A DNA stretch of 64,000 bases from Catajapyx aquilonaris (taxonomy: Eukaryota), in the NCBI GenBank assembly GCA_000934665.2, contig JYFJ02001660.1, positions 1 through 64,000 of the forward strand, written 5' to 3'. Numbering within the stretch: the first letter of the stretch is position 1; each line of letters starts with the position of its first letter. Both the position numbers and the translations under genes were made by a program. The notes below the pieces were generated by a model that saw nothing but the letters and a program-made list of their open reading frames with translations, searched no databases and was not told the DNA's origin. Positions 7,234 to 39,543 of this stretch are shown here, one piece after another.

Positions 7234-8385
7234 TTAATAATAATAGCCATTCCGACTCCAGGGTGCCCTTCCCATGAAACCGAATCCCTCATTCCCATAG
7301 TTAGGCCTCTGGAGGCACTGCGGTGAGATCTTTTCACATACGAAAGGTAACTCCTGATTGCAGGGCATGTCATCCCACTTAAAGTCCCTCTCTTTATGAA
7401 GGGCCATGCAGTTTTCCGGGCCATGTGCCTTCAACAACCCACCGTTGTCGGGTTGTCCAGAAGCCCAATCATTGAAGTACACTGCCATCTTGGTCATCTC
7501 CCAATGCCACCGTCCTTCATGGCCGTGGTCGTAGCCTCCAACCCAAAATGTGCGTGCATGTCCTGTGAGACATAAAAGTAATGCATTATCTGGCGATTGC
7601 GACTTGCAGAGCTCACTTACTGGATCGGATGTAGTTCTTAAGTGTGTATGCCTCCTCGTAGCTTTCCACCATAGCCAGCTCCCCGCCCTGCATTCGGCAC
7701 GACTCCGAAGCTTGCCACCAGTTCATGCCCTGGACGTTGCTGAAGAGGTAGCATCCAGTCACAAGGCGAGTGTAAGGCGCAATGCACCCAATGCCCTGAC
7801 TCAAACCTGTCACTGTCGGGTAGAAGGTCATGTCATGAAAGAAAAATTCGCTAGAAACACAGGCAATACTTACTGTAAATAAGCTGGGCCGCAACCAAAT
7901 TCAGCCACATTCCTTCCATGTTGGACGTGCCCTGCCTCTCTGGCAAAATGTGGCTACCTTCTTCCTTTTTAATGACATTGTGACTTTCCGTGCCGGAAGA
8001 CAAATGGCATTACCTATCCTGGTGTCGCTTTATTAGATAATTATTTCATGTAGCGACAATGCACACGTCAGATAAAAAAAAGAAGAATTCATTAAAACAA
8101 TGGGATTGTTTTGGATTACCAGGGCCAGTAAAAAACAATAGCGTGATTAGTGGAAGGTGAAGCGCAAAATAGAAATGAAGAGAGATAAGACTGATAATAG
8201 TTTTCCGTCCACTTTGGACTATTGTAAACTATCTAATACACTTTATTCCATTCTTTTTAAAGTACACCAACAACAAAAACTGTACAAAAACAGCTTATTA
8301 TTTTTTTCTCTGTAAATGCATTTACAAACCCATCCCTTCAATAAATTAAATCCATATTCTCACACCTTATCCTAATAAACAACAT
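7234..8385 (-). CDS. Secreted single-domain C-type lectin (QPD motif)
   Basis: Exons 7812-7621 (GCYLFS..MNWWQASESC..GGELA) and 7562-7234 (FWVGG..EGRWHW..WASGQPDN..ENCM..WDDMPC..FVCE). A hydrophobic signal-like exon lies at 8190-8120. The ATG exon at 8385-8366 is phase-compatible but tentative. Confidence 0.88.
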
Positions 8386-10285: not shown

Positions 10286-13200
10286 TCAATGGAACTTTGA
10301 CTTATGCACAACGTTCCTGGCAGTGTTCCTGAGCTTCTCCTCAGACTTGACAGCCATCCTTCTGACCCAAAGGCAGAGCCTGTGTGGCCTCAGGGGCCAT
10401 TCGTATTCGTTGGGTACCATCCCGTCGATTTGTGACTCGAAGTATGAAAACAGTGGGAACCAGATGCGGGTTCGTTTGGAGTCCAAATGCATCAGGGCTC
10501 TGTTGTTGGCCAGTGTGTGGTAATACAGGAATAAGCGAGATGTGATGTAGAAGGCCACAAACACATCTATGGAGTAATGTTCATGGGCTGCTAGGATGAA
10601 GAATATGCCAAACATATTCAGGAGCCAGCTGAACGTGTGAAGAAAGTAGATGCGACGGGGAGTGTCTGCACACAGGATGGAAGGCAAGTGAGCCTCGAGT
10701 TACATGAAAACAAAAATTAAAATTACGAAGTGTACTCACATTCAGTAATAAAGAAGTTGAGCATGGTCAGCGCAACAGTGTGTCCTGAGAACATGTAGTC
10801 CCCGCATGTCCGAACTCCTTGGATAGACATCCCTGCAGCCTTCCATATCAGGTACGCCTGGTGGGCTTTGGCCGTTACGTCTCCGTATGGCTGCTTGGGC
10901 ACAAATAAATATATCTCAGTATATGCCTAACATGTAAATGAATACACCACAATCATAGAAATAGGCTTCAATCATCAGCTGGCAGCTGCCCAATCCAACT
11001 TTCTAGGTCCATAAGTAAACTGTGCTTAATAAAACATCATAATATATTGATAAAGCCCATCTCGTGCATCTCACTTCTTATTAAGTATAAATGTGCCTCA
11101 CGTGTCACGCTGCATTTATTTGTGAAGAGGTTGGCAAAATAGTTTTCATAAATTGAGGATGATGATATTTAACCAGAAGTTACCATTTCCCAATTACCAT
11201 ATTTGACAGCATAAAAGACGCATGTTTTTCCCACAAAAATTGGCTCAAAAAATCTGCCTGCGTCTTATATGCAAAAATACGCTAAAAGCTTTTTCTTTCC
11301 CCTGAATATCATCTGCTGAAATGGGGGTGCATCTTATATGCCTTCAAATACTGTATTTTAAGACCATACATGTAACATGCAAGGTGTAAAAAATGCATGA
11401 AATTATTAACTTCGAAAGCTGTGACTACTTTTACAATTATGTGACATTACCTGAATATTTGAGAACCAAATCCATTTTGAAAAAAATTTCAAATTATGAG
11501 TCATCATCCTCAAAACAATTTCACTAAATTGCATTCCCATTCAAATGATGGCACATGCATATAACTATTACTTTCAAAAGCAGCAACTTGCTAACTCTAA
11601 AATGCATCTCTTGCGTATTTTCTACAGGTGCAAGGTTTGTTCCAGATTTTTTTATACATACATACATCATCATCACGCCTAGTTCCCTGAAAGTGGGTAG
11701 GCAGTAAAAGAACAGGAAGAAATATAAGCTGAGGTGAAGGCGGAAAATGGTCAGACTTTCCTCTTTAAAAATTACTTATCCGTTGACAATGTATTGCCTT
11801 AAGACTACCACATTAATGCAACACATTCATGGTTTGTTGAATTAATATTTCACCTGAAATTATCTGGAAATCCAAAATGGTTCATTTCATGTTTCAACAA
11901 TTACGACAATTATTATGAAACTTAAACTCACCCTAGGATTGCACTGCAGGTGAGTCCCAGGAACTGACAGCGAAGTAATGAGCATTGTTACACATCTCAG
12001 TAAGAAAACGGTGCCCGACAAGCAGAAGAATCGGCGGAGCAAAATAAATCTGAAACATGTGTACCAAGCTGATTAGAAATGTGACGACTATTCCTATTAT
12101 CACGGGATTGATCAATGGCCAAGCAGTTATTTGGATCTAATCTGACTACCACTCTCATTAATTTATTTTCACAAGAACTTTCGGCATGGAATAAAAGGCT
12201 GTCACTAGAACCATTACTTCACAACACATGCGTATAGAAAAAATGTGGAGTCACCCTAATTATACCTTCAATTGTTGGGAGGGGTGACAGCTTTAATCCA
12301 AAGCTTTATTCTGCCAAAAGAGACCACCAAAATTCCTTACTCAACTTGATAAAATTGACTGCAGACTTCGACAAAAGTCCAAAACAATTTAACAGCGAAC
12401 TTGAGGAAATGCGTAACTCACCTGTGCTTGTGAAAAAAGAGCACGACAAGCCAAATGAGAAGAAGTATGGTTCCAGTAATCTCACACATCTCAAAGGCCC
12501 AGGGAATGTGGGGCACGTTATCCAGGAAGATGTCTGGGAGTGGAGGGTATTTCTTCATGTCTGGAACTCTGTCGTGGACAATCACCATTACAAAAGCTGT
12601 AATCCAGGTCACTCCAAAGAGGTAGGCCAAACTCAGGAAAGCTTTTCCGATTTCAGGTTCCAGCCGACACCCATGAGATCTGACAGAAAATCCAAACATT
12701 AACAAAAGCTCAATGACAATCATTATCTGCTGCGGAAAAAATCACGTGAAAAACTTCCGCACTCTCAGCGAATATTTAGAAAAAATACCTGTGGTTTGTT
12801 GACGTATATGACTGGCTTCTTTCAATCTCAAGTTCTGAAGCGGATGAATCAGTTGAATCTGGAATTTGCTGTCCAGACACAACATACGCAGGCGAAGGGA
12901 GCCTGGTAACCGAGCACTCGCCATGGCAGGAAGAAGTGGCGGACATGCCTAGAGATTCCAGGACTGAGCGATTCTCCTTCTGCAACTGGTGGAGGTCAAA
13001 CACCAACCGTTTTATGTCTCCCAAAACCTGGAATTGGAATTGAATAATTAAGACGTCTTTGTCACAGCTGACTCGACAGAGTAAAGCGAGAAAATCAGTG
13101 AGTAACGCAGATATGCCTAGCATCCTATGTACACGACATTTGTACAGTTGTTAGATTTAGAGTCATTAGTTCATCTAACATAATAAAGCAGAAAGTTTGT

Positions 13201-17265: not shown

Positions 17266-18377
<1,112 letters not shown>

Positions 18378-19328: not shown

Positions 19329-21859
19329 TCACGAGCTTTTGAATATTCTGTATTTTAAAATTATGCTTGTTGTTGATACTTTGGATTCATTTTCACTGGT
19401 GGGTTTCCCATTCTGTTAGAAAGAGAATATTTACATGTTTCAGTACATTAATTAAAGTCATTAACATTTTCAAGCGCAATACCTTGAAGGAGTCAGTTTT
19501 CAAGCAGGCAAATTTTCCGCACACATCAGAAAGTTTTGTCATTGCCTTCTGAAAATTTTTAATATGACTGTCAGTATGATATTTTAAAGTGACTGTCAGT
19601 GATTAATATACAGTACTTACCTCATGTTTCTTCTTGTTGTAAGCATCCAGATAAAACTTGTAGAAAAGCGAGAACATGACTATTCCAGTAGGAATTGTCA
19701 GTATCCTTGTAAACCTTGGGTAATCACATTCAACAAAGAATAATTGAAACTGATGTATCATAAGCAAAACAAACTGAACCTGTGAGGACACAAAGTATCA
19801 CGTTTCAGATTATAGAAATAATTTTGTCATAATATGATTTTGTGTAAAACTTGCAGAAATTATATTGTAATTTACCATTTGCAATAGCGTCAGGTACCTC
19901 TTCCACCATAAATATTTATGGTAGCCTAGAGCTGCCAGTAAGTAATACATATACATCAGGACGTGGATGGTGGAGTTAAACGGAAGTATTAAAGTTCCTT
20001 GTCCACCTGAAACACACATTATGTAAAGTACATTATACTTTTAAAAACTTGCAAATATTTTAAGCAATTAGCTTGCCCAGCGACTCACCTCCAATGAAAC
20101 GTGCCACATACCACGTGAAGAAAGGTGTGGTCAGGTGATGATACACATGAAGGAAACTGACTTGCCCATAGCTTTTTCTCAGAACGAAAAATACCTTGAA
20201 AAGCAGAGAAGATAAATGAGACAACTTTGTACCTTCATTTTTTACTGATCATTAATGTATGCATTACCGTATCAAGCCAGTCAACTATCTTGGAAAAGAA
20301 GAAGAACCAGATGGCATACACCATCTGTAATTAATCCATAATTATTTATCGGGTCTTGTACTGTACATATATTGAGCTTGTAATGTGTTGCAATCATGAT
20401 TGTAGTCATTAAAAACAACACTATAATGAAGGTGTACAACCTACTTCGAGCTATATGGTGCCATATTGAAATGAGGCATTTAGAGAAATGATACCGGTAC
20501 CATGAGAATGAGTTCAACCGAAGGCATATACACATTTCGCAAAAACTATCAATGGACCGACTTACGAAATCTTAATTCAATTATTTACATCTGCAAATAT
20601 TTTTTTCCGTAGCTTTATTTCCCAACATGTCGGTTTATTATAGGCTATGGCACTTGGCCTGTAGGACACTCGCAATTGGACGTCCAAAAAGTAATAATTT
20701 AAAAGTACGTGAGTGAGGACAAGAACTTGCCTCTTGAGTACGTGATACCATAATTTGAATCTAATGAGCAGCACAACTACCCAGTAGTAGTGTCGAAATT
20801 TTTTTTAAAATCGCGGTCAGGTTCATGAAACTGCTCTGCAAACATGCTTATTTACTCTTGCATACAATAATTCCCATAATGAACTGCATGCCTGCACTCG
20901 CTTTTTTTGTTGTAAAGAAAACTAATATGGCACATGCTGTACGGAATTTAGTGTTTCCATAATAAAGTCTCCCAGAGAAAGTTTTGTTAACTATTCACAA
21001 TGCAACAATTATTCTCAGCATCATAATATCAACTATGAATATTCGGTGTTATTTCATTTACATTTTATTCTTCGTGTGGAAAAATGTCTCCATGGTAACT
21101 AAACCTGGACAGACAGACAAACAAACAATCAAGCAAACAAACAAACTTTGCCGTTTATAATAATAAGAGAGACTATGCACAATGCAACATTTATCAGCAT
21201 CAATAGATATTCGGTGAATTATTTACATTAATTCTTTGCATGGAAAAAAATTGTCATTTTGACAGACGAACAAACTTTGTCTTTTATAATAATGTAGATA
21301 TTTCTTATCGTGGTATTCCAAGTTCTACTGCAATATGGTATAAAAATTTGAGAAGTATTTACCATCATCGCCTGTGGTCTCCTGGAGAAATCAGTGGGCT
21401 GGCACACGAAACTGTATCCATTAAACCATCCGCCTTTGATACTCTACAAAAGCAACGGTATGCACAGTATAGTAACCACCACTTTTTTGAACAATACCCC
21501 CCCCCCNCCCCCCCCCCCCCCAAACTAACCAAAGCCAGGATCCACAAATTTTGCACCACTTGAAACGCATTATACACCATCATCGTCTTCCGCAGCTTGA
21601 ATGGTTCCCTTCCCTTCATGAACCACGGAAGAAGGTAACAAACCAACACAAAATATCCAGAGCAAGCAACCACAATAGGGTACATGTCACCCAAAAGTGG
21701 CAACTCCTTCACACGCTCATCTGAAGAAAGAAAGAAAAAAGTCAAAAAGAATCATATTTTTGAAGTTCAATGTTACATCGCACCTGTGTTGTCGTGGAAG
21801 AAAAAGTTGTACTGGCTCTTGACAAACCGGAGCAGATGCTGACCATGTTCCGCCTCCAT
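19329..21859 (-). CDS. Very-long-chain fatty acid elongase (ELO/ELOVL family)
   Basis: Exons approx. 21859-21784, 21720-21530, 21443-21363, 20324-20268, 20194-20089, 20007-19876, 19779-19621, plus tentative 3' exons 19548-19483 and 19412-19329. Motifs FMKGREPF, YNAFQV, SKIVDWLDTVFFVLRK, histidine box FLHVYHH, NSTIHVLMYMYY, LWWKRYLT.LQ. Confidence 0.95.
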
Positions 21860-24800
21860 GCTGGACACTTTGGGGGTCAAATGTATGGCCAGTCTTCCAA
21901 GACTTGTGAAAGGTATGGCTACTCACGATTGTATGGCATACCTGAGTGTGGTAGGCCGCCAAACTTAACTCTGAGACCGTTGTGTAATGGTGTACCTTCA
22001 AGAGAGGTCCAAACTACTTTTTGGAACAAGCTTTCTCCTTTTTTTTCTGGGTTGGGCACAAAACTGGTTAGCTTAATTATTCAGCATGTCGTACCAGTAG
22101 GTCTTGTTGTCGCAGGTTCTCCATTGGTTATCGGTTCGAGGTCGTTTATTAGATGATCTGTTTTTTGTGTGTGTAGGAAAAGTACAGTTAGTGTACGTCA
22201 GCATAATTTTTTTTAAACTAATTTGATGTGGACAGAACCTGATTTTTGAGGAGGTCCGAATTTTTCTGACTGACCTACACCAACATTGGTTCTTTTTTGC
22301 TACGAACCAGACATACCTTTAGAAGGAAACCTTGCCCTTATTGGGTTGCCGGTTTATCTTGATGTCATGTTAATAAAATAATTTAATTAAACACGTCCTG
22401 CTGCTTTTATACAATTAGCGATATCGTCAGGTGGGGTTTTTTTTGCTCGTTCTAACCTTCACCTTGTTTATAGGAGTGTAGAGTGCCAAGGTACACACGT
22501 GGGTGACACTGTTTTGACATTTAAACATGTACGAATTGAACTGTTATCATGATAAAGTGAAATGAATGACTTTACGCACAATGTAATTAAGCAAAAAATG
22601 GAACTACACATAACCGCAATTAGGTTACCCACAAAATGTATTGCAAAACTGTGCCTGTTAAGAAATAAGTGTCATAGGTCACGTAACAATTATTTCGTAT
22701 GTCGTGTAAGTAACATAGGTTTACAACTACACCGAGAGAGTGAAGGTTGTAATCGCCATTTAAAAAATTTCATTGCGGCAGCAATACTACGAATTATCCT
22801 AAGAAAGTACACAGAGAAATCGCGTCTCGTCCGCCATTGACCCTTAACCTTATTGCAAAAAGGTAATGACCCGCAGGGCTATTTAATTGGCCATTTTCCT
22901 GCAAGCCAATCACTTTCACTTCACTGACCGACATACCGGACACGAAAAATACCTGATAGCCAGTATTTTGCATACCATTACATTTCCATTGTACCAATGT
23001 AAAAATATGCAGAATTTGGCATCAAGCTACTTCCTCTAACATTTTCCTGGTTATTAATATTATTAGTTACCGGTAGGCCACTTAATATATTCGTATCATT
23101 GAAGAAGTAATGCTAATTTGCATTTTAAATATTTTTGGCGGTTCTTACAGGAATACTTTCAATTCTTGTTAGAAGCTCTTAAAAAATTACCTACCGCAGT
23201 ATGGAAACATTTGTAATCTACAGTACTTATGCGTAAGTGATGGTGCAGGCTACTGCCCCAATCCCCAGTAATTCAATGGGAGGGTAGGCCTAAGCGAAGT
23301 TATGGATTCTGAAACCGGTTTAAGATAAGCTGCACCTGTTAGAAAGACAGTGTTTGGTATTTGTTTCTGGATCATATATATTTTTTGCCTCACCGACATT
23401 TCTGGGCTATTCTGACAGGACATCATAAATTATGATCAAAAATTTCTTATCCTTTCACTAAAGTTAGCATTTATAAGCAACACTAATAGTAATTATATAA
23501 TTATGCGCAATAGGTACAAACTTCATAATATTACTTTTTGTGCAAATTATTTATGCTACACCCAGGATTACCTTGATGCTGCTTCCTGAGGTTGTCCTCT
23601 TCGGTGTAAACATTCTATAGAACTGAATTTATCTGAATGATCTTCGCTGTTTGTGCAGCTTTAATTGCATGCACTGAAAACAGCAGGATCTCATGCATGA
23701 GATTATTATACGGTGAATTGGGTGATACGATGTGAATCATGCATTCATTTTTGTGGGAATGTTTTAAGCGGCATTGGAATTTTTCATATGATAATATTGC
23801 GGTATACTAATCGATAGTGCAAAAATATTTTGATTGTGTGTGCCATAAAGGTAATAATATTTGATTGAAATTATTAGTAGTCGGTTTGATATCGCTGCAT
23901 TATTGGCACACCCAGACCGTTTTGCATGGAGCCCTTTCAGTGTTAGTGGAGCAAAAAAGATTGTGCAACGAAAATAATTTTTTGTCACGCAATAAAGAAT
24001 TTTATAACAGTAATTTAACAGTGTTTTCTTCCTAAAAGGGGGTTTACAGTACATACTTCACGATTTTCTGCGTACGTTAACATTCCTAAAAGATAACTAT
24101 CGATGATTACCTGCTTCACTTAGCTTGTGAACGATCACTATTGAATGTCCAGGAGTGGGACGCAATTTGCCCTGATATCCTCTTTTCTACGCTCGAGTTA
24201 TTTTGCAAAGATTCTTAGGGATGATACGGTATCCAATAAATTACTGTAGTTGAAGTTCGGGAAGAGGATCTTGAAGGTATTGAATCTCATAGGTTTGTAA
24301 TAATACCAAGAATTCGCAATAATGTCATGCCATAAAATTTTTAACTGTTTCTGTCAGCATTTTGGAAATACTTTCCTGCTGTATTTTTTTTTCTACTTCG
24401 CTTACACACTATATCAACTCCCAAAAAAGAAGCACGGCATGAGTCTTGAAACTAATTAATTAAACTAAACACATGGCAAAACGCAGTAAGTTTCGACATA
24501 TATATACAGTAATGCAATGTTATTTTTAAACATTTCTCACAACATTATCAGTAATGGGAAAAAGTATAGAAATTTTTCATTACGTGTTGTAGGTTAGTGC
24601 ACGAAGCTTTAACTACCGCATGAGTTAAGAAACAGGAGTGCAGTTATATAATGGGGCGTATACCAGTGATTGGCTGTATTAAAATGAAAATTAGCATATT
24701 AACGTCAATGTAAAATATCATTGGCTTAAATCAAACTAAAGTGAATTAATAAGCCTTGCGAGAGTATATGTATTTCGCAAACCTTTGGTAACCCTGCATT

Positions 24801-25248
24801 TTCCCAGCCTTTTGCAAAATTTTCAACCTTGAAAAATTTGTACGTAGATAGTGATCTTGAACGCTTGCAATTTTTAGCGCATATTTTGATACTAATGTTA
24901 GGCCCACATAGGCAGATTACTAACATTAGTAAAAACTTTTCCTCCCTCAACTAGTTAGATTCAATATTACATGCAAATGCCAGTGTGCCTATATGGGGAA
25001 AAATCTGCATATTTAAATGCTGATAATAATACCGTATTTTGCATTTAAAATATTCCCATCAACCCCTCTATTAGGTTATTCAACATCAATTTGGCAAACA
25101 ATCGGAAATAGTCAAGCCACATTCGTTATTATATTATTCTTCTGAGGGAATCTATTATAATGATGAGGAATATAATTAAAGTCCCATGTCGGTATCTACA
25201 ATAACGTTATGTGGTGTCCAAATTTCAAGACGAACAATTTAAGAACGA

Positions 25249-25259
25249 CGACTACGACG

Positions 25260-25337
<78 letters not shown>
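25249..25337. repeat. (CTA)n microsatellite
   Basis: Long pure run of cta units preceded by cga variants. Confidence 0.95.
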
Positions 25338-25341
<4 letters not shown>

Positions 25342-25346
25342 TTTAA

Positions 25347-25510
25347 CCCTGTAATGCCCCTTGGGTCATATCTGGCACACCATTTAGTGCAATTTGGCAC
25401 TTACAGGAAATATAAAAATTGCAAAAGTTGCAAAAATTGCAAAAATTGCACTAAATGGTGTGCCAGATATGACCCAGTGGGCATTACTTAGATTAGTGGG
25501 CATTACAGGG
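25347..25510. mobile_element. piggyBac-like MITE with TTAA target-site duplication
   Basis: TTAA|CCCTGTAATGCCC ... GGGCATTACAGGG|TTAA, plus an internal inverted repeat tgggtcatatctggcacaccatttagtgcaattt / aaattgcactaaatggtgtgccagatatgaccca. Confidence 0.85.
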
Positions 25511-26156
25511 TTAACTCAACCGACACAATTTTTTTTTGGAATAACTAAATAAAATAAATAAATTTGATAAATTTCCCTTATATCCCACAATGCAACAAAT
25601 ATTTTGGGAATAGATCACATTATCCCTGAATGCTCTATTAGATCACCGTATTTTCTTTAAAAACATATAGTACTTACAATGTGATCAAAATGCACGTCCA
25701 GTTCAATGATCCAGAAGTCTATAGTAGCCTAGCGGCTGTAGCACTGTTGGTTCACTACAGGGTTTACTGATTAACTGATTTCAACATCTCCAAATCACGG
25801 CAGGCGGCCTAATTATTCGCAGCACTGTTACGTATACCCAATGGCCTTGGCGTGCGGGGATTGGATTTTAACTATTAATTATTACATCATATCCTATATA
25901 AACTACTGGGTGCTGGGGAAAGTGCTCATATTTTCCCCCACACATTTCCTGGCACATTCTGACATGCAAGGTGTATAATTTATTACAATTCAATCCAAAT
26001 ACTCGAGCGAGAAAATTATTATTTTTTAAAATAATTTTTTAAAAATGTGAGCAATATAATTATGTCCATGTGCGCATGTAGTGTCAAAGAATTATGAAAG
26101 TCCAGGTCCAGGTTACTCATCTGCCTCCTAATTACAAAAGGTCGAAAAATCTTGTA

Positions 26157-26306
26157 CAGTCGACTCCGGATATAACAGACTTCAAGTGACCTCGGAAAAA
26201 AGTCTGTTATAACCGTAGTTTGTTAATATCCAAATGGCCACTTTTGCAAGTACGAATAGTCCTGCACATGTTTTCTGTTTTAGGGTATTATATCCGGAGT
26301 CAACTG
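26157..26306. mobile_element. Tc1/mariner-pogo-type MITE
   Basis: TA|CAGTCGACTCCGGATATAA ... TTATATCCGGAGTCAACTG terminal inverted repeats. A partial second copy lies at 47926-47980. Confidence 0.75.
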
Positions 26307-26379
26307 ACTGCAATTTTGATTAACTAATTTTAAATGATGTTCGAAAAAAGCCCGCGCCCGATATTATCGCAAAAAATTA

Positions 26380-26396
26380 TATCGATAATATCGATA
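26380..26396. promoter_or_regulatory. Two tandem DRE motifs (TATCGATA)
   Basis: Exact TATCGATA at 26380-26387 and 26389-26396, followed by AAGATGGC, about 140 bp upstream of the SRPBCC-gene ATG. DRE is the DREF-bound housekeeping promoter element known from Drosophila. Confidence 0.6.
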
Positions 26397-26536
26397 ATAT
26401 CGTAACGTCAAAGATGGCTGCGCACTGCTTAAAAATTGATGATCTCCTTTATGTTGTCCTTCCTGGTGGTCGATGGAGACCACGTAGCACTCTGATCGAT
26501 TCCTCACTTCCTCCTGCATAACACCTGCTAGTCAAT

Positions 26537-28114
26537 ATGGTAACGTACACGTCTCGTTTATTATTAGATAGAGAAAAAAAAATGTGCATGGAAAAATGTT
26601 ATCAGTTTGTCCAGAGCCGTGTCATGTATTTGCATTGGATGTCATGAAGGTACTTATTGTCTCATCAATTGCAGGGCTGGAGTTACGTTCCCTTATGCTT
26701 TGTGAGCATATCTCTCCTGGCCCACCTGTCCATGAAGGAGTGTGATCCTGATGACCAGATGGCCGTCGAGTCTGGTTTGCTCGATAGCTCAAGGGACGAA
26801 ACTTTTCAGTTTCTTCTGCACACTGACACGGTCCCCAATGTACGTATTACAGTACCCAAAAGGTACCATCAATGTATGTTGATTTTTCACCTGCAGTAAT
26901 ATCTTTGGTCTAACAGGTAAGTGCTCCGAAAACGGTCAAGAGCCATACCAAATGCACAAATATTAAATAAGTATCTTCTGATTGTTCATGATGACTTAGG
27001 AATAAATCTTGATATACACTGTATTCCCAATTTTCTGGACTAATGACCGCGTGGGTGTTGCCGGATAATCAGAAAACATGGATATTAAATAGAAAATGGT
27101 TTGTAAAAGTGAGCTGCTCAGAGGTTTTAAATGAACTGCTGCACATCAAAATAATGAAATGTCCCACACATTTTCAAGGTGCGTTTACATTTGAGCGATT
27201 TGACGAGCGAAGTCGTCGCCGAGCGATGTAACCAATATTGTTTGAGGTGAAAGTAACAATCGATTTTCGCCTCCAACAATACTGGTTGCTTGGGTTACTC
27301 AGCAATGTTATGCTTGGCGATGACATCGCTCGTCAAATTACTCGCATGTAAACGCCACTTCAGTTTGTCTTCTGGAAAAAGCATGCTATGCATTTCAGTT
27401 GTTTGCATGCCATATTGACATTTTTTCAGACTCGTATTTATTTTCTTTTGTTTTGGAAGTGCATGGATAATCCGCAACATGGATAATCCGCACCCGGATA
27501 ATCGGGAGTACAGAGTGTATATTTGATGCATTTGCAAAATTATGGTCAATACAGACAGCTATATAGACAGTGAAGAAAAAAATTGTGCATTGAGCAAGGA
27601 TACATTTTAATCTAGTTTATTTTCTGTGCGGCAAAATATATGGGGATTTTATTACAAATAATAATGCTGCTTTTTTCAGTGGCTGTTTTGGGTGTCACAC
27701 TTCAGAGCCATGGACTCGCGCCTCCTAGGGCTCGGCAAGCGGTATGAAGCCACATTTGATGTGCCTTTTTATGGTGTGTACAGTTGCAGTATATCCACAT
27801 TTAATGCCGTTCCTGTCATCTCTAATGCGTTTTAAATTTTGACAATTTTAGGTCTGGTGCGAGTGCCATTGGAAGTTACGGACTACACCCCAAACATGGT
27901 CCTGGTTCTGAGCTCCAAAACTGGAATGCTGAGGCCCAGACTGGACATAATATGCTCTGACATGGGACCCAATAAGTCACGGCTCACTTTCAGGCTGAGC
28001 TTCAGAAGAACCTCTGTACTCTTTCAGAACACTGTTGGGAGGATCCTGAATTTTGTGTCCACGCAGCAGCTTCAGCGAGCTCTCTTGGCTCTCAGGTCAC
28101 TCATGCCAATCTGA
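26537..28114 (+). CDS. SRPBCC/START-superfamily (polyketide cyclase/dehydrase-like) protein with an N-terminal hydrophobic segment, about 174 aa
   Basis: Exons 26537-26539 (ATG|gt), 26675-26839, 27680-27773 and 27852-28114 join in frame: MGWSYVPLCFVSISLLAHLSM..AVESGLLDSSRDETFQFLLHTDTVPNWLFWVSHFRAMDSRLLGLGKRYEATF..EVTDYTPN..KSRLTFRL..QQLQRALLALRSLM. This matches the SRPBCC pattern by eye. Confidence 0.75.
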
Positions 28115-28412
28115 ACGTCCACATTGCAAGACATTCCCGTTATCATTGCACAAACTGTACCTCGTACTGTTACCAATAAATCATGCAATAACAAGTGCCT
28201 TCAATGCACTTGATTGATGGAAAAGTTCATAAATTTCATTATTAAATAAGTGGATCACATATGTTAATTTTCTGCAATTATAGGCTCAGACAGGAATTTA
28301 ATTGATGATAATTCATTCCAAATAATTTTATTTTTTTGTAAATAAAAGTCATTGTAAATGATTGTAGGAATTGTCCCATGTTGTTATGTGTACAGCATGT
28401 GGAATATCTTTT

Positions 28413-30268
28413 CTACTTAAGTTTTTTAATGTGTGCTCTTAGTTGTCGAAGATCTTCAAGTGCTGCTCGTGCAAGGTAAGCTTCAGGAGTACCCAGAGGT
28501 TCATACAGCAGCAGCCGTGTGCACTCGGTCAGCAACACTTCTGCTTCTTTGAGCTTTGCCTTCAGTTCTGATTTTGTAATCTCGCCCTTCTTACGACTCA
28601 TATGTGCCATCATTACCATTGGTCCCTGAAGCTCATGAAGAAGTACACCTGTAATGTATAATATTAATTAGTTAAAAGCACATTTTCTCATTGCAACGTC
28701 CGTACCTCTAAACCGGGATATTCCTGGATCCAAAACATTGGCCACTGCAAGAAGTTCCCTACAAAGCTGCGTCTGCCTCAACAAGTCTGACGGATTGGGG
28801 AATTCAGACTGCCTGCTCTTATCTGCGTAGACACGTAGCAGGATCTGCCTTAACTCCAGTAGGCAGCTGTGTTGTGGGTGAAGTGAACGTTGCAGTTTGG
28901 TCAGCAGCTTTTCTAGCGCTTCGGAATTTGGTCCGCAGTTTTCTATTGACATCTGCAGGTAATAAGATAACGTTCTCACATTGAGTTAATAAAAATTCAT
29001 GGCCGTTCTACATTACCTGGACATTGACAGCTAAAGTCTTCATGATCTGCTGGGACATAGTTCCTCGACAGCTTTTTTCACACTTCCACTCCTGGGTGGT
29101 TTTGAATGGTGTCGGTGGCAGTACAAACCCAGTTCGGCATTTTGTGCATCTTATTGCGCTCACATAAGTGCCCATTTCTGTCGGATCACTGCATCGACTG
29201 CATTCACAGTTTAAATATTTTCCTGAAAAGCTAGAGTTGTAGTCATGTGCAATTTTGAATTTTTGATGACTTGAGCTGCTTGTACAAGGCTCCTTTTCTG
29301 GAGAATTCATTACCTTCTCTTAAAAACTGTTGCCTTTGCGGAGTAGTATCTAACTCTCTAGTATAGTTCACAAGCAGGAGATTACCCTTTTTGATCTGTA
29401 ATCTAGCTCTAGCACGAAGTCGGAAGGTTGGATCCACCGACACCTGAACATTTCCAATGCAGCTATGAGCCATGAGGGACGCTCTTGGATACAAAGCACG
29501 GACAGGAGGACCTTCCGTTTGCCTGATAATTGTGAGAGAAAAATTAGTAATCCAATTTGACTCATTTGTGCAAGTGTACTTATGTGCTAAACTAACCCTT
29601 CCACATTAGGTCCCCTGACTTCAGAGGCATTGGCATCCAAAACTCCACAAATAATTTGGACCTTATCCTCCTCTCCATCCTGGACCACTCCGACCCTCTT
29701 TAAAACCGGTGTAAGTTGATCCCGGTTGTGGATCCACACTGGACCATCCTTCCTCTTGTCCAGATGAGCCTCCATCTCCATCACGACTTTCTCTGCCTCG
29801 GGACTGCCCTGGAGTCTTCGCAAGCATCGCATCGGAAGGACAAATTCCAGGATTCTAGATTCGGCCATGTCTCCATGTGTGACCCATTTTAAAATTCCAG
29901 ACACATTTTTCAGTGTTTGGCATTCTGATGAGTGTGTCGGACTTTTCTCACAGTTTTGGTCGCACAGTGGGGCTGAGCATGTTTTGCATGTGTATAGCTT
30001 GTGAGGTAGTAGCAGTGAGAGGCAGTTTAGACACAAGGGTGGCCCCTGGGCAGGAGGACCCACCGCATATGGCATATCCTCTAAAACAATCTCACCTGCT
30101 GAAACGTCTCTGGCTGCTACCAAATACCTATATCAACAATATTTAAAAAATGTACAAATATGTAAAATAATTTGATTCAATTTTTAATTCATCACCTTAC
30201 CTGCCAAACTTTGCGTTGCACAATATCTCGAATTTTTGGTCCTCTGGCTTCTTATTTTTTGACGCCAT
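28413..30268 (-). CDS. SET and MYND domain protein, arthropod SmydA/msta type, 6 exons
   Basis: Exons approx. 30268-30201, 30128-29597, 29523-29334, 29223-29017, 28952-28707, 28648-28413. Motifs FGRYLVAARDV..GE, MYND CxxC..CxxC..C...C..H...C, MAHSC, post-SET CECSRCSDPTE, LHPQH, LDPGISRFRG.LLHEL and LLYEP. Confidence 0.92.
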
Positions 30269-33444: not shown

Positions 33445-35985
33445 ATGTCCAGGTCTGCCGTAGCCAGGAGACTCAGCACCCTGCTGGGCAGAAGGACACC
33501 CGCACTTCCCAACAGAATTTGCAGGTGCATCACTGGAACACAGGTTTACACTTATTTTTTAATATTATTATCCTCAGATTATCCGACCATGCATCGGTCA
33601 TGTATGGTAATTTAAAAAATTAAGGCCAAAAATTACTGGAGCATTACAGTTGATTCGATCCCTTTGTTTACTGCAGGTGGAAGACCCTGTGCCGTTGTTC
33701 CTAAGGGCGCTGAGGTATCCAGATCGCACTGCTATAAGCGACCAGTATGGGAAGTTCACTTATGGGGATCTGTTCACACGAGCTGGAGTCTTGTCCGCCA
33801 AAATTAAGGAGGCGCTTGGCCCTGAAAGTCAGCAGGAGAGAGTGGCCTACCTGTGCACTAGTGACGTTACCTATGTCACCAGCCAGTGGGCTGTTTGGAT
33901 GGCAGGGCATGTCGGTTGGTGACTTGATTCAAGTCGTTGCAATATGCGTACGGTGTAAACATTTCGTTGTCACATTGCAGGTGTGCCGCTGTCACCGATG
34001 CATCCTCCGTCTCTCCTGGAGTACATGCTGACCGACTCTGAATCGAAGCTCCTTCTGTTCTCCGACTCTCTCTCAGAAATGGTGACTCCGCTTTTGAAAT
34101 CCACTCGCAACCCTCCTCAGGCCATTCCTGTCCGTCCAGATGATGCCTACTGCGCTATCCCTCATTCAGCCTCAGATTGGGTCCAGGATCCTGATTATTA
34201 CTGGCGTAACTTGGGTCTGATCCTATACACAAGCGGCACCACCGGAAAACCGAAGGGAGCAATGCTGACCCATCGGAACCTGTATTCCATGGTCCATAAC
34301 TTAGTGACAGCTTGGGGTTTTACCCAGGACGACAACTGCCTGCACGTATTGCCTCTGAACCACATGCATGGAATCGTTAACGCTCTTATGGTTCCACTCC
34401 AAGTCGGGGCAAGGTAAGCTCTATATTTCTCCCCCATGTTTTTCAAAGAAATTGTGGTTTTCACCTGATGTATTCGCCGATATCATGTAGACATTCCGTA
34501 CTGGCAAACTGCATGTTGTTACTGCCACCGGATGGGAATTTACAAAAATCTGGTCACCTCAGCAATCTGTGTGCACGTCACATCAATTTTGCATATTACT
34601 TTCCAGATGCACCATGCTTCCGAAATTTGACGCCCATGCTACTTGGGGTCATCTCCTCTCTCTGAAGGCATCCACCAAGGACCAGATCACGGTGTTCACC
34701 GCAGTGCCCACGATCTACTCTCTCTTAATCAAGGACTACAAGGAACGCTTCAGTCACAAGAGCAGGGCTCAGGATTACGTGAAAGCCGTTTGCCAGCAGA
34801 AGTTGCGACTCATGATGTGCGGGTCTGCGTCATTGCCTACTTCGGATTTCTACAAGTGGGCCGAGGTGAGTGGGCACCAGCTGCTGGAGAGGTTCGGGAT
34901 GACTGAGATTGGAATGGCCCTCTCTAGTCCACTGCATGGCGAAAGGAAGCCTGGTAAGTTTAACATCTGCTCATATCATATGCCAGGAAAATATGCTGAA
35001 TATTCTCTGGAAAGCTGCAAATTTCAGAGTTCTTTGACAGACAGATTTCACTGAACTTTTTAAATGCTTGGCGCAGGATACGTTGGGAACCCCCTTCCGA
35101 CAGTGCAGGTTCGGATTGGCGTATCAGAGGGACTCAAGAGTGACAAGGTGTACACCACTCTGGCAGAGGGGACCTTCTTTGGTACCAAAGTGACCCCAGG
35201 TCAGGAGGGAAAGCCAGGAGAGTTGCTCGTACATGGACCCTCTGTCTTTAAGGGGTACTGGAAGAAGCCTCAGGAGACTGCTGACACATTCGCTGTTGAT
35301 GGGTGGTTCAAGACAGGTAGGCTTTTCTCGCATTTGTGTCCACAATTATGAAGATCTATCATACAAAAATGCCATTTTCCACAAGGGGACACGGCTGTGT
35401 ACCAAAATGGCTCATACAAGATCCTGGGCCGTACGTCGGTGGACATCATTAAAACAGGCGGATTCAAAGTCAGTGCTTTGGAGGTGGAATCAGTGCTGTT
35501 GAATCATTCGGTTGTGGAAGAATGCGCTGTAATTGGTCAACCTGATCCAATCTGGGGGAATAAGGTTTGTGGTCTTTCATTACAAATTCTCTGTAGAGTC
35601 GTGCACTGCTAAAGCCTTTAATTGAAGCGGTATACAGGCAAAGAAGTTCGGATTTGTATAAAACATGCAGGCTTTGCTAAGTGGTTACTCTGTACAGATC
35701 TAGGAACCATTCTGCATAACTCATGTACACTGATTTCTTGTTATGTACATCTGTAGTACCTATGGTTTTTTTTGTGTGTTAATACATTTTAATATAAAAC
35801 AGGTCATGGCCTTAGTTGTACTAAAGCCAAATGAGAAATTCACGAAGGATGAAATGAAGGCGTGGGCTGCGAAAGAACTTCCACCGTATGCAGTTCCCAC
35901 AGAAATGAAACAAGTAGATGAGCTTCCGAGAAATGCCTTGGGTAAAGTTAATAAGAAGGAGCTGCAAAGTATGTTTACAACCTGA
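33445..35985 (+). CDS. ACSF3: Malonate-CoA ligase / acyl-CoA synthetase family member 3, copy 1 (mitochondrial), 7 exons
   Basis: Exons approx. 33445-33543, 33677-33914, 33981-34413, 34607-34953, 35077-35317, 35386-35564, 35803-35985. Arg-rich, acid-free presequence [17 protein letters not shown]. Motifs [51 protein letters not shown]. Confidence 0.93.
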
Positions 35986-36673: not shown

Positions 36674-39543
36674 ATGGCAGGATCGCTAGTGCAGAGAATG
36701 TCTCCTTCCACGGCCATGCTGCGAAAGGCATTGGCGACTTGTGGTTGTAATCAGATCAACAGAGGTTACATCACTGGATCACAGGTGATACACTGATAGT
36801 GCAAGCTTATAAATGTCACACTTGTAATTATCGAGGAAAATTTAGAATGGAAATCTAAATTTTTGTGCATTAGAATGTGAATGGTATACATTTTTCAGGG
36901 AGAAGATCCGGAACCTTTATTCCTAAATGCACTCAAATATCCCAATCGCATTGCGCTGAAGGACCAGTATGGAAATTACACTTACGAGGAATTGTTCTGC
37001 AGGAGCCAGTCACTTGCTACGAAAATTAAGGAAGCCCTGGGCCCTGCGAGTGAGCAAGAGAGGGTTGCTTACCTGTGCACTAGTGACATTACCTACGTCA
37101 CTAGCCAGTGGGCAGTTTGGATGGCAGGGCACATTGGTTGGTAATTTTTTTTAAATTAAATAATTAAACCAGTTTACACTAACTAATAATATAAAAAAAT
37201 TATAAATGAAATATTGTTACAGTGACAAGTGAGGCGATGAGGAAAGTAGAAATTGATGTCAATTTTTTATTGTCTTTATTACGGATAAAGGCTAAATTCC
37301 AAGTGATATATGACAGAAGTGTATCACAAATATATTATCCAGAGACCTACAAAAAGATAATGTAAACACACTTTTTTGTACATTGCAGGTGTGCCTCTGT
37401 CACCCATGCACCCTCCATTACTTATGAATTACATGATGAATGACTCCGAATCCAGTCTGCTCCTCTTCTCTGAATCACTGTCAGAAAGTGTGCTCCCTCT
37501 CCTAAAGTCCAGTCGTGAACATCCTCGGGTGATCCCAGTGTCTCCAGAATATTCCTTCTGCGCCACTCCTGACACCACTTCAAGTTCAGTACACTCTCCA
37601 GAGTTTAATTGGAGTCAACCTGGTCTGATTGTGTACACAAGCGGAACCACAGGGAGGCCTAAAGGTGTGGTTTTGAGTCACCAGAATCTTTATGCTAACG
37701 TCAAAAACATGGTTACTGCCTGGGGATGGACCAAGGAGGACAACATACTTCACATACTACCCTTGAACCATGTTCATGGGATTATCATTTCTCTTATGGT
37801 TCCGCTGCAGATTGGGGCAAAGTGAGTTGGTTCATCATACGCTTTGAATGCTGTCATTATTTGAAGGCTCAGTGTTAGCATTTAATTTTAAGATAGCGCA
37901 GATTGAAAGAGGCAAATGAAAAATCCTTTCTAAGGTTTTATAATGGCAGATAGCAATGCTACCCCATTTTTGGGTTAATGCCGTGATGTAATGAATGAAT
38001 GAAAGATATCAATAATAACTGCACTTTTCTCTCTAGATGCACAATGCTTCCGAAATTTGATGCCTTGTCAGTGTGGAATCATTTTTTGGAGACATACGCA
38101 TCCCATGAGGACCTAATTACAGTATTCACAGGAGTGCCCACTGTCTACTATCTTCTTGTAAAGAGCTACAGAGAGAATTTCAGTCAGAAGAGAGAAGCAA
38201 GAGATTCTGTAAGATCAGTTTGTGAGCAGAGGATACGCCTGATGATGAGTGGGTCTGCCTCCTTGCCTACCTCTGCTTTCCATGAATGGGCTGAAATCAC
38301 TGGACATGAGTTGCAGGAGAGGTATGGGATGACTGAGGCTGGGGTTGTCCTGTGCAATCCTTTACGTGGAGAGAGAAAGCCTGGTAAAGTTTGCAATATG
38401 TCGGAGCATCCCGGACATTGAAAGCTTATTTATAGGGCTGCATGGTGATGTATATGTGTTTCATGCAGCCAGATTATTTCTCGACAAAGTGACTGAGTTG
38501 CTACTTCTTGAAAGCATCACTACCACGCAGATTTCTGAGAATAGAAAGATTACAACCCACTATTCAATGTTTAATGTGGTATTCCAAGAAGGGCTTTGTC
38601 AATGAATAGGTGTCTGTGTAAACAGTTGTAGTGTGAAAGACTAGGGAAGATAAACTGTCATGACCTATATAAATAGCTACAGATTTAGCTCCAAAATATT
38701 TGATGATTATTGTGCAAATTCAAACAGGCATTTACTTGACAGGGTATGTCGGAAACCCTCTGCCAACAATGAAAGTGCGAATTGAGACACCTGAGGGTAA
38801 CAATGATGGAACAATCATCACTCTGGCAGAGGGAGACTTTTTTGGTACTGAAATGACCATGGGTCAGGAGAATAAGCCAGGAGAAATACTTGTGCAAGGA
38901 CCGTCTGTTTTTCAGGGATATTGGAATAGACCTATGGAAACTGCAGACTCATTCACTCGTGATGGATGGTTCAGGACAGGTAATGACCACTCTCTGCTGT
39001 TAATGACAACCTCACAACTGTTGAGAATTGTATTTGAAGAGACGCATTGACCATCCATACTCTTTCCACTTGCTATCAGGTGACACTGCCATGTACCAAA
39101 ACGGTTCATACAAAATCCTTGGGCGTACGTCCGTGGACATAATAAAGACAGGTGGATATAAAGTCAGTGCACTGGAGGTTGAATCAGTGCTCCTGACCCA
39201 CCCTTCTGTGAATGAATGTGCTGTGATTGGAATTCCAGATGGTACCTGGGGACAAAAGGTTTGTTTCCGTTTCATTAATTTTTTTTCACAGTTTTGTCAT
39301 TACATATTTAATGTGCTTTATGGAGCTGATTATTTACCATATACTTTCTTTAAACAACAGGTTACTGCTGTGGTTGTTATAAAACCAAATGAAAAGTTCA
39401 CTCTGGATCAAATGAAGACATGGATTGCAAAACAGCTGCCACCGTACGCAATCCCTAAAGAAATGAAGAAGGTAAACGAACTACCCAAAAATGCAATGGG
39501 TAAAATTAATAAGAAGGAACTTATTACACTTCTTATAAAATGA
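36674..39543 (+). CDS. ACSF3: ACSF3-like acyl-CoA synthetase, tandem copy 2, 7 exons
   Basis: Same exon structure as copy 1 (approx. 36674-36784, 36899-37136, 37389-37821, 38037-38383, 38743-38979, 39080-39258, 39361-39543). Motifs YTSGTTGRPKG, QERYGMTEAG, PKNAMGKINK. No frameshift or stop was seen. Confidence 0.9.

What the first reader, a model, noticed from the sequence alone, without database searches (positions are those of the whole stretch)
26537..28114. Hidden intron-split gene encoding a bacterial-looking SRPBCC/polyketide-cyclase-like protein with a signal or anchor peptide
The ORF track shows only unrelated-looking fragments. Four exons, the first contributing only the ATG, join in frame into 174 aa. 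The layout (..S.DETFQFL....VPNW......LGLGKRY....EVTDYTP.....SRLTF.....LQRALLALRSL) resembles stand-alone Polyketide_cyc2-type proteins, which are common in bacteria, more than the familiar animal START, COQ10 or AHA1 proteins. The hydrophobic N-terminus suggests a secreted or membrane-anchored small-lipid carrier. It may be an uncharacterised invertebrate family or an old, domesticated horizontal acquisition.
Basis: partly seen in the sequence, partly recalled or inferred. Interest (0 to 1): 0.7.

Follow-up and report, generated by a model that had tools for sequence, protein, structure and literature searches.

The report
Unannotated arthropod SRPBCC lipid-pocket gene
A small split gene in this arthropod genome encodes a member of an unstudied arthropod protein family with a bacterial-style ligand-pocket fold and a membrane-targeting start, a useful annotation but not a surprising one.

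Summary
Exons 26537-26539, 26675-26839, 27680-27773 and 27852-28114 (+), all with GT-AG introns, join into 525 nt, or 174 aa. A profile of 12 homologs, built without the window, scores the spliced product at 169 bits; the best of 1000 shuffles scores 9.7. Among 3233 six-frame fragments of the window, it hits only the three exon ORFs. All named homologs are 'uncharacterized' arthropod proteins of about 170-200 aa from locusts, ticks, amphipods, shrimp, a hoverfly and a leafhopper. The window's PCNA also looks arthropod. One tick member passes the Pfam PF10604 cut-off. The closest homolog folds with pLDDT 92 into an N-terminal helix plus a helix-grip domain. Its best solved matches are bacterial stand-alone SRPBCC proteins, with Z up to 18.3. 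Two of the window's intron positions recur in homologs, which argues against recent gene transfer.

Still open:
- the ATG-only first exon
- cleaved signal versus membrane anchor
- expression
- the ligand

Verdict: a real, apparently unannotated gene, a new member of an unnamed arthropod SRPBCC family.

The parts
26380..26396 (+). Two adjacent TATCGATA motifs, 141-157 nt upstream of the proposed ATG. Possible core-promoter element (inferred).
   Evidence: These are the only 2 matches in the 64 kb window. The chance expectation is 0.56, and 9 of 100 shuffles had 2 or more. Reading them as a DRE/DREF-type element is recalled knowledge and was not tested.
26537..26539 (+). Proposed coding part of exon 1: the start codon only, with donor ATG|gtaacg. 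This is the least certain part.
   Evidence: it is the second best of 56 candidates by a crude donor score, and the nearest; the family profile cannot distinguish it from alternatives such as 26094-26111.
26540..26674 (+). Intron 1 (135 nt, phase 0, GT-AG)
26675..26839 (+). Exon 2 (55 codons). It encodes the hydrophobic N-terminal segment (residues 2 to about 21), then strand 1 and the first helices of the domain.
   Evidence: Family profile positions 8-55, 16.7 bits for the ORF fragment alone.
26840..27679 (+). Intron 2 (840 nt, phase 0, GT-AG). It holds an inverted repeat with 49-nt arms at 27176-27224 and 27312-27360.
   Evidence: The same junction position is seen in homologs: P0027 and P0006 diverge there, and P0009 has a 20-aa insert there.
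27680..27773 (+). Exon 3 (31 codons plus 1 base). It carries the most conserved block, including invariant W57, D68 and K76.
   Evidence: 61% identity to the Hyalella azteca protein over this exon. 46.6 bits alone. Invariant residues.
27774..27851 (+). Intron 3 (78 nt, phase 1, GT-AG), with a stop codon in the exon-3 frame
   Evidence: The same junction is seen where P0005 joins P0006.
27852..28114 (+). Exon 4 coding part (2 bases plus 86 codons plus TGA). It encodes strands 4-7 and the long C-terminal helix, including invariant L114, P116, R117, R140, S142, L144 and F145.
   Evidence: 88.7 bits alone. phmmer found 11 hits, the best at E 4.9e-9. Invariant residues.
28175..28180 (+). First AATAAA after the stop codon, a candidate polyadenylation signal (inferred)
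   Evidence: Further AATAAA/ATTAAA matches start at 28241 and 28341.

Best explanation
The region holds a real protein-coding gene on the + strand, split by three GT-AG introns. The protein collection searched shows no entry for it. Its product of about 174 aa belongs to an unnamed, so far uncharacterised arthropod family.

Family members have a hydrophobic N-terminal segment of about 20 residues, followed directly by a minimal SRPBCC / Bet v 1-like helix-grip domain of about 150 residues (strand, two helices, six strands, long helix).

Inferred mechanism. The N-terminal segment sends the protein into the ER, either as a cleaved signal peptide or as a short signal anchor. The domain then holds a hydrophobic or amphipathic small molecule (a lipid, sterol or terpenoid-like ligand) in its pocket, in the secretory pathway, at a membrane face or outside the cell. 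The conserved polar set D68, K76, R117, R140 and S142 probably contacts a polar head group or shapes the pocket mouth.

Shown: the gene structure apart from exon 1, family membership, and the fold of the closest homolog. Inferred: targeting, ligand binding and expression. My confidence is about 0.85-0.9 for gene, family and fold, about 0.6 for ER targeting, and about 0.4 for passive ligand carriage. The 0.8 given is for the statement as a whole, leaving the ligand unnamed.
For: Gene model:
- 525 nt, 174 aa, three GT-AG introns.
- The exons align colinearly along whole homologs.
- The family profile, built without the window, gives 169.0 bits against at most 9.7 for 1000 shuffles.
- Only the three exon ORFs score among 3233 six-frame fragments; the next best is 3.8 bits.
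- The pieces tile the profile in order.

Family:
- 11 hits with exon 4 among 1.84 billion representatives, and 10 with a profile.
- All named ones are arthropod 'uncharacterized' or 'hypothetical' proteins.
- All 11 positions that are invariant in 11 of 11 aligned sequences are kept in the window protein.
- Two window junctions coincide with break points in homolog predictions.

Fold:
- PF10604 at 33.3 bits, above the 27.4 cut-off, in P0002; AHSA1 at 23.9, above 22.1, in P0003.
- AlphaFold2 model of P0023 (39% identical to the window product over 164 aa): pLDDT 92.0, pTM 0.80, helix-grip order of elements.
- Foldseek: at least 374 PDB matches at E<=0.001, with bacterial SRPBCC proteins at the top.
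- VIA: Z 18.3, rmsd 2.2 over 140 residues to 3ijt_B; 87 of 48161 chains reach Z>=8.
- ESM features of exon 4 and of P0023 point to bacterial PF10604 clusters, at 0.95 and 0.94.

Targeting:
- Uncharged runs of 13-18 residues, preceded by 1-5 K/R, in 12 of 12 family rows; the window has 21 residues.
- Removing the hydrophobic start costs 7 bits.
Against: - No expression or junction evidence.
- The whole spliced protein could not be given to Pfam or to structure prediction. The window's exons on their own hit no Pfam or NCBIfam family, so fold and Pfam membership are carried over from homologs that are 31-39% identical.
- Only 3 of the 20 rows of alignment A2 (fragments and the window exons included) match PF10604 at E<=0.01. 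5 of 8 homologs scanned had no Pfam hit at all.
- The window protein has the longest terminal branch in the family tree (1.11) and its placement is unresolved.
- With the ATG-only exon the N-terminus has no K/R before the hydrophobic run, unlike all 12 family rows.
- By the abstract of PMC1626468, start-codon introns are typical of proteins without signal peptides.
- No signal-peptide predictor was available, and pocket geometry was not examined because no model coordinates were accessible.
Confidence: 0.8

Rival explanations
1. Same gene and fold, but the domain is an enzyme rather than a passive carrier. It might act as a cyclase, dehydratase or lyase on a lipid-like or aromatic substrate, as in some SRPBCC members.
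For: A conserved polar set (D68, K76, R117, R140, S142) is invariant in 11 of 11 sequences. High structural matches include polyketide aromatase/cyclases (3tl1 Z 15.6, 3tfz 14.6), norcoclaurine synthase (8ho2 14.4), a hydroxynitrile lyase (5e46 14.0) and lachrymatory factor synthase (5gte 13.6).
Against: These rows do not stand above binding proteins with the same fold (PYL9 14.7, cytokinin-binding protein 14.7). No catalytic residue correspondence was tested. Arthropods are not known to me to have a pathway needing such a step (recalled).
Confidence: 0.2
2. The family entered the arthropod stem lineage by an old horizontal transfer of a bacterial stand-alone SRPBCC gene. It then gained introns and a targeting segment.
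For: The fold is nearest to bacterial stand-alone SRPBCC proteins in size and shape. ESM features put it next to bacterial PF10604 clusters of 167-181 aa. All named family members so far are arthropods.
Against: Identity to bacterial structures is only 6-17%. Intron positions are shared across family members. The Atlas search covers only large clusters, and its own text says a row from another domain is no sign of transfer. The searches for non-arthropod animal members were of limited reach.
Confidence: 0.1
3. The locus is a decaying or silent copy: an unexpressed pseudogene that still looks intact.
For: It has the longest terminal branch in the family tree (1.11). No protein from the window appeared in the collection searches. 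There is no expression evidence.
Against: The frame is open over all 522 coding bases, all splice sites are canonical, and all 11 family-invariant residues are kept. The long branch may simply reflect a deep lineage: the window's PCNA is at most 83% identical to any named arthropod's.
Confidence: 0.08
4. Translation starts at an internal Met of exon 2 (residue 21 or 30 of the model), giving a cytosolic SRPBCC protein without a targeting segment.
For: Exon 1 is only an ATG and is unconfirmed. In-frame Met codons exist at residues 21 and 30. The domain proper begins near residue 23-31.
Against: The hydrophobic segment encoded at the start of exon 2 aligns with that of all full-length homologs. 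Dropping it lowers the profile score from 169.0 to 162.0 bits. The acceptor lies directly before this segment, and the ORF has no in-frame ATG between the upstream stop and it.
Confidence: 0.07

Closest known systems
Unnamed arthropod family of 'uncharacterized protein LOC...' entries, e.g. Penaeus indicus LOC134782508 (P0023), Hyalella azteca LOC108667321 (P0003), Dermacentor variabilis LOC142570704 (P0002), Schistocerca piceifrons LOC124776917 (P0001), Eupeodes corollae LOC129950949 (P0008)
   Same: Same length class (169-204 aa) and the same order of N-terminal hydrophobic segment and domain. The match is colinear over the whole length. All 11 invariant residues are shared, and two intron positions are shared.
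   Different: Only 31-39% identical. The window protein has the longest branch. With the ATG-only start it lacks the K/R that precedes the hydrophobic run in the others.
Bacterial stand-alone SRPBCC proteins with solved structures (SMU.440 3ijt, YPO0625 7tmu, MSMEG_0129 5z8o, MLL2253 3q63, TTHA0849 2d4r); Pfam PF10604 Polyketide_cyc2
   Same: Same helix-grip fold and domain size of about 140-150 aa. Z 15.5-18.3 at rmsd 2.0-3.2 over 125-141 residues. One family member passes the PF10604 cut-off.
   Different: Sequence identity is 8-16%. In the arthropod family the structural matches begin at model residues 21-30, after the N-terminal hydrophobic segment. The genes have introns. Most of these bacterial proteins have no known function either.
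Animal SRPBCC-type proteins: START domains (StarD13 2pso), Aha1 C-terminal domain (8z3j), Aster/GRAMD1 (8axw, 6gqf), COQ10 (PF03364)
   Same: Same superfamily fold, and a general role in holding lipids or sterols for START and Aster (recalled).
   Different: Lower structural scores (Z 12.8-13.1, with StarD13 at rmsd 7.2). No family sequence passes PF03364 (best 19.8 against a cut-off of 23.4), and no START family appears among the Pfam hits at E<=0.01. Those proteins are cytosolic, mitochondrial or parts of larger proteins (recalled), whereas this family has an ER-type N-terminus.
Plant Bet v 1 / PR-10 / PYR-PYL / cytokinin-binding proteins
   Same: Same fold and size, with Z 13.2-14.9. They are small-ligand binders.
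   Different: No sequence-level match was found here. They come from a different kingdom and have no N-terminal targeting segment (recalled).

Membership tests
Unnamed arthropod SRPBCC-like family (P0001-P0003, P0006, P0008, P0012, P0019, P0021-P0025) | Full-length colinear match to a profile of the family built without the window | tested here: met
   169.0 bits, profile positions 8-172 matched to residues 8-173. The best of 1000 shuffles scored 9.7 bits.
Unnamed arthropod SRPBCC-like family | Family-invariant residues present | tested here: met
   F47, W57, D68, K76, L114, P116, R117, R140, S142, L144 and F145 are identical in 11 of 11 aligned sequences, the window included.
Unnamed arthropod SRPBCC-like family | N-terminal hydrophobic segment preceded by basic residues | tested here: inconclusive
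   The hydrophobic run is present (21 uncharged residues, against 13-18 in 12 family rows). With the ATG-only exon 1 there are 0 K/R before it, against 1-5 in the others. The alternative first exon at 26094-26111 would add one K.
Unnamed arthropod SRPBCC-like family | Shared intron positions | tested here: met
   P0027 leaves P0006 after 56 shared residues, at the window's exon 2/3 junction. P0005 joins P0006 for the last 102 residues, at the window's exon 3/4 junction. This is indirect, because no homolog DNA was seen.
SRPBCC / Bet v 1-like superfamily (helix-grip fold) | Strand, two helices, six-stranded antiparallel sheet and long C-terminal helix | tested here: met
   Met for the closest homolog P0023, folded with an alignment that holds the window's exons: pLDDT 92.0, element order E31-37, H41-49, H51-57, six strands, H149-170. 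The window's own spliced product could not be folded.
SRPBCC / Bet v 1-like superfamily (helix-grip fold) | Strong structural match to solved members over the whole domain | tested here: met
   Z 18.3, rmsd 2.2 over 140 residues to 3ijt_B, and 87 chains with Z>=8. Foldseek found at least 374 matches at E<=0.001.
SRPBCC / Bet v 1-like superfamily (helix-grip fold) | Internal hydrophobic ligand pocket | not testable with these tools
Pfam PF10604 Polyketide_cyc2 | Score at or above the gathering cut-off (27.4 bits) | tested here: inconclusive
   Window exons scanned singly: 0 hits. The whole spliced protein could not be scanned. Homolog P0002 scores 33.3 bits (passes), and P0003 scores 20.3 (fails). 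3 of 20 alignment rows match at E<=0.01.
Pfam PF08327 AHSA1 | Score at or above the gathering cut-off (22.1 bits) | tested here: inconclusive
   P0003 scores 23.9 (passes), P0002 21.0 and P0008 15.8 (both fail). The hits overlap those of PF10604 and so point to the superfamily, not to Aha1.
Pfam PF03364 Polyketide_cyc (COQ10 type) | Score at or above the gathering cut-off (23.4 bits) | tested here: not met
   The best family scores are 19.8 (P0002) and 17.4 (P0003).
Cleaved secretory signal peptide | n-, h- and c-regions with a predicted cleavage site | not testable with these tools
   No signal-peptide or membrane-topology predictor was available. Only run lengths and charges were counted. 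At 13-18 residues (recalled ranges), they lie between typical signal peptides and membrane anchors.

The most novel reading that the evidence does not exclude
This would be the first recognised animal family of ER-targeted, bacterial-type minimal SRPBCC proteins. It would be arthropod-specific, present from ticks to crustaceans and insects. It would act as an extracellular or membrane-face carrier or sensor for a lineage-typical lipophilic signal such as a farnesoid or juvenoid, an ecdysteroid or a cuticular lipid. It might descend from a bacterial gene taken up by the arthropod stem lineage.
Probability: 0.12. Interest if true: 0.7.

Novelty: new member of a known kind. Interest (0 to 1): 0.35.

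Why it matters
The gene fills an annotation gap. No protein from this locus turned up in the collection searches, and an ORF track shows only fragments of it.

It also points to a small family shared by ticks, crustaceans and insects. That family has no Pfam model of its own and no paper in the library searched. It combines a ligand-pocket fold best known from bacteria and plants with an ER-type targeting segment.

If the family carries a lipophilic hormone, pheromone or cuticle lipid, it would be a new player in arthropod physiology, including in vectors and farmed shrimp. As it stands, this is a solid annotation with an open function, not a surprise for specialists.

Tried and rejected
- **Read evidence.** The look-up of sequencing runs listed no RNA holder. 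Junctions, transcript ends and expression are therefore untested.
- **Own genome.** None is held for this window.
- **Single exons against libraries.**
  - Pfam: exons 2 and 3 hit nothing, and exon 4 gave only a sub-threshold MBDa match at E 0.12.
  - NCBIfam: nothing.
  - PDB sequences: nothing.
- **Word-based search with exon 4 among longer proteins.** 598 candidates, none at E<=0.001.
- **Family profile against PDB sequences.** Only 6 rows at E 0.05-0.09 (staphylococcal leukocidin-type chains), which I take as chance.
- **Rfam on 22000-29000.** Nothing.
- **The search for related loci.** P0006 and exon 4 as single queries in metagenome contigs found no relative. Genome contigs was not scanned with a single protein.
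- **Family tree of 11 sequences.** The window's position is unresolved, so it says nothing on orthology or transfer. No tree with bacterial sequences was built, because no bacterial sequences were in hand and identity is about 10%.
- **First-exon alternatives.** The profile cannot tell them apart. A donor at 26650 would leave an intron of only 25 nt; I rejected it by eye, on recalled minimum intron sizes.
- **Literature.** Three searches found no paper on this family or its LOC identifiers. Supplements were not searched.
- **Earlier findings of this scan.** Nothing.

Full report
**The observation.**
- An ATG at 26537-26539 is followed directly by gtaacg.
- An acceptor (ttgcag) precedes 26675, and the frame is open to 26839, followed by gtacgt.
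- An acceptor (ttttttcag) precedes 27680, and the frame is open to 27773, followed by gtgtgt.
- An acceptor (ttttag) precedes 27852, and the frame is open to TGA at 28112-28114.

Joined by coordinates in a script, these give 525 nt and 174 aa with three GT-AG introns of 135, 840 and 78 nt. In a stop-to-stop ORF list the gene appears only as three unrelated-looking fragments of 83, 56 and 92 aa among 103 ORFs, so 'hidden' is fair.

**Is it more than chance?** Single exons hit nothing in Pfam, NCBIfam or PDB sequences. A word-based search with exon 4 found nothing either.

A full HMMER pass of exon 4 over 1.84 billion representative proteins gave 11 hits at E<=0.001, the best at 4.9e-9. Several were 173-177 aa long. 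A profile search added more.

The three exon translations align colinearly along the full length of these proteins. Exon 3 is 61% identical to the Hyalella azteca protein. A profile of 12 full-length homologs, built without the window, scores the spliced product at 169.0 bits; the best of 1000 shuffles reaches 9.7.

Run over all 3233 six-frame fragments of the window, the same profile picks out exactly the three exon ORFs (88.7, 46.6 and 16.7 bits). The next best fragment scores 3.8. The three pieces tile profile positions 8-55, 56 to about 88, and 86-172. Exons 2 to 4 and their junctions are therefore well supported by comparison. There is no second copy in the window.

**What the family is.** Cluster look-up and the profile search name these members:
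- Schistocerca species
- Dermacentor species
- Hyalomma asiaticum
- Hyalella azteca
- Trinorchestia longiramus
- Penaeus indicus
- Eupeodes corollae
- Homalodisca liturata

All are labelled 'uncharacterized' or 'hypothetical', and none carries a precomputed Pfam domain. The other hits come from unnamed ENA, JGI or Logan contigs.

The window itself is arthropod-like. Its PCNA exon is most similar to PCNA of Daphnia magna (83%), Blattella germanica (82%) and Ladona fulva (81%), and nearly all of the best 120 rows with a name are arthropods.

The window protein is 31-39% identical to family members, closest to the Penaeus protein at 39.0% over 164 aa. It keeps all 11 positions that are invariant in 11 of 11 aligned sequences: F47, W57, D68, K76, L114, P116, R117, R140, S142, L144 and F145.

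In a tree of 11 sequences, amphipods group together (support 100/99), and shrimp joins them (88/88). The window sits on the longest branch (1.11) with no resolved position.

**Fold.** Among eight homologs scanned:
- The tick protein P0002 passes the PF10604 Polyketide_cyc2 cut-off (33.3 against 27.4 bits).
- P0003 passes AHSA1 (23.9 against 22.1).
- Five have no hit.

Across the 20 rows of alignment A2, 3 match PF10604 at E<=0.01. These Pfam families belong to the Bet v 1-like clan (recalled).

I folded the Penaeus protein with alignment A2, which includes the window's exons as rows. The result had mean pLDDT 92.0 and pTM 0.80. It shows an N-terminal helix (residues 4-21), then strand, helix, helix, six strands and a long C-terminal helix.

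Foldseek found at least 374 PDB matches at E<=0.001, led by bacterial structural-genomics SRPBCC proteins. The Foldseek-independent VIA search of 48161 chains gave Z 18.3 (rmsd 2.2 over 140 residues) to SMU.440, and 87 chains with Z>=8. Ranks 1-41 are prokaryotic or plant SRPBCC proteins. StarD13, an Aha1 entry and Aster-C follow at ranks 42-45 with Z about 13. Language-model features of exon 4 and of the Penaeus protein also point to bacterial PF10604 clusters, as leads only.

One reservation remains: the window's own spliced product could not be handed to Pfam or to the folding tool, so its fold is inferred from homologs.

**N-terminus and first exon.** All 12 full-length family rows examined carry an uncharged run of 13-18 residues preceded by 1-5 K/R. 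Three of these rows are locust isoforms. The window has a 21-residue run.

Structural alignments to solved domains begin at model residues 21-30, so the hydrophobic segment abuts the domain with no linker. The run length lies between typical cleaved signal peptides and membrane anchors (recalled ranges), and no predictor was available. 'Signal or anchor' therefore stays open.

Exon 2 has no in-frame ATG before the hydrophobic segment, so the start must come from an upstream exon. The ATG at 26537 is the nearest of 56 phase-0 ATG...GT candidates and the second best by a crude donor score.

An alternative at 26094-26111 would add six residues including a Lys, which would match the family's basic n-region. 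The family profile cannot separate the alternatives (168.8-169.1 bits). Starting at the internal Met 21 costs 7 bits.

Two adjacent TATCGATA words at 26380-26396 are the only ones in the window (expected 0.56; 9 of 100 shuffles had 2 or more). They would suit a promoter just upstream of the 26537 start, if read as DRE-type elements (recalled). This is weak support.

The abstract of PMC1626468 reports that introns right after the start codon are common in eukaryotes, arthropods included, but mainly in proteins without signal peptides.

**Age and origin.** P0027 is identical to P0006 for 56 residues and then diverges, exactly at the window's exon 2/3 junction. P0005 shares the last 102 residues of P0006, starting at the window's exon 3/4 junction. 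The Hyalomma prediction P0009 has a 20-residue insert at the first of these points.

These look like gene predictions running into introns at the same positions, so at least two intron positions seem to be old. The family spans chelicerates, crustaceans and insects, and exon 4 has no named bacterial hit. Together this favours vertical descent within arthropods.

A very old transfer from bacteria cannot be excluded or tested here. The searches for members outside arthropods were limited to one exon and to word-sharing candidates.

**How it probably works (inferred).** The N-terminal segment directs the protein to the ER. The helix-grip domain of about 150 residues then encloses a hydrophobic or amphipathic small molecule. 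The invariant D68, K76, R117, R140 and S142 probably lie at the pocket or its mouth. A catalytic role is a real rival, because cyclases, synthases and lyases of this fold score about as well as binding proteins.

**What could not be done.**
- No genome is held for the window.
- Related-locus scans gave nothing.
- Three literature searches found no paper on the family.

**Verdict.** This is a real gene that appears to be unannotated. It is a new member of an unnamed arthropod family in the SRPBCC superfamily. Interest is modest.

Noticed in passing
window 17272-18173 (+): PCNA gene in at least two exons. The first exon matches PCNA_N at 201 bits. The best named relatives are Daphnia magna (83%) and Blattella germanica (82%), which places the window in arthropods.
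   Followed up: partly
window 33959-35054 and 37361-39543 (+): Two tandem genes of the AMP-binding (acyl-CoA synthetase-like) family with very similar exon translations, apparently a local duplication.
   Followed up: partly
window 28416-30132 (-): A convergent neighbouring gene whose last coding exon ends about 300 nt after the finding's stop codon, so the two 3' ends must lie close or overlap. Its two large exon ORFs hit no Pfam family at E<=0.001.
   Followed up: partly
window 27176-27224 / 27312-27360 (intron 2): Inverted repeat with 49-nt arms, 82% complementary, 87 nt apart. It may be a small foldback or MITE-like insertion in the long intron. A 15-nt direct repeat lies nearby at 27462-27492.
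   Followed up: no
window 26157-26306: Nested short inverted repeats (19-20 nt arms, 90-95% complementary) upstream of the proposed start, between the two candidate first exons.
   Followed up: no
window 7234-7722 (-), 5643-6326 (+), 10286-10699 (-), 21566-21751 (-): Exon-sized ORFs matching C-type lectin, C2H2 zinc finger, PAP2_C (sphingomyelin-synthase-like) and ELO fatty-acid elongase families.
   Followed up: partly
window 21507, 40070, 47404: Single N bases. Those at 21507 and 47404 fall within proline- or glycine-rich translations, that is, homopolymer-like runs.
   Followed up: no
protein P0009 (Hyalomma asiaticum KAH6920732.1): This database prediction (254 aa) carries two 20-residue inserts and an N-terminal extension relative to the Dermacentor orthologs. 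They are probably retained introns and a wrong start in the annotation.
   Followed up: partly
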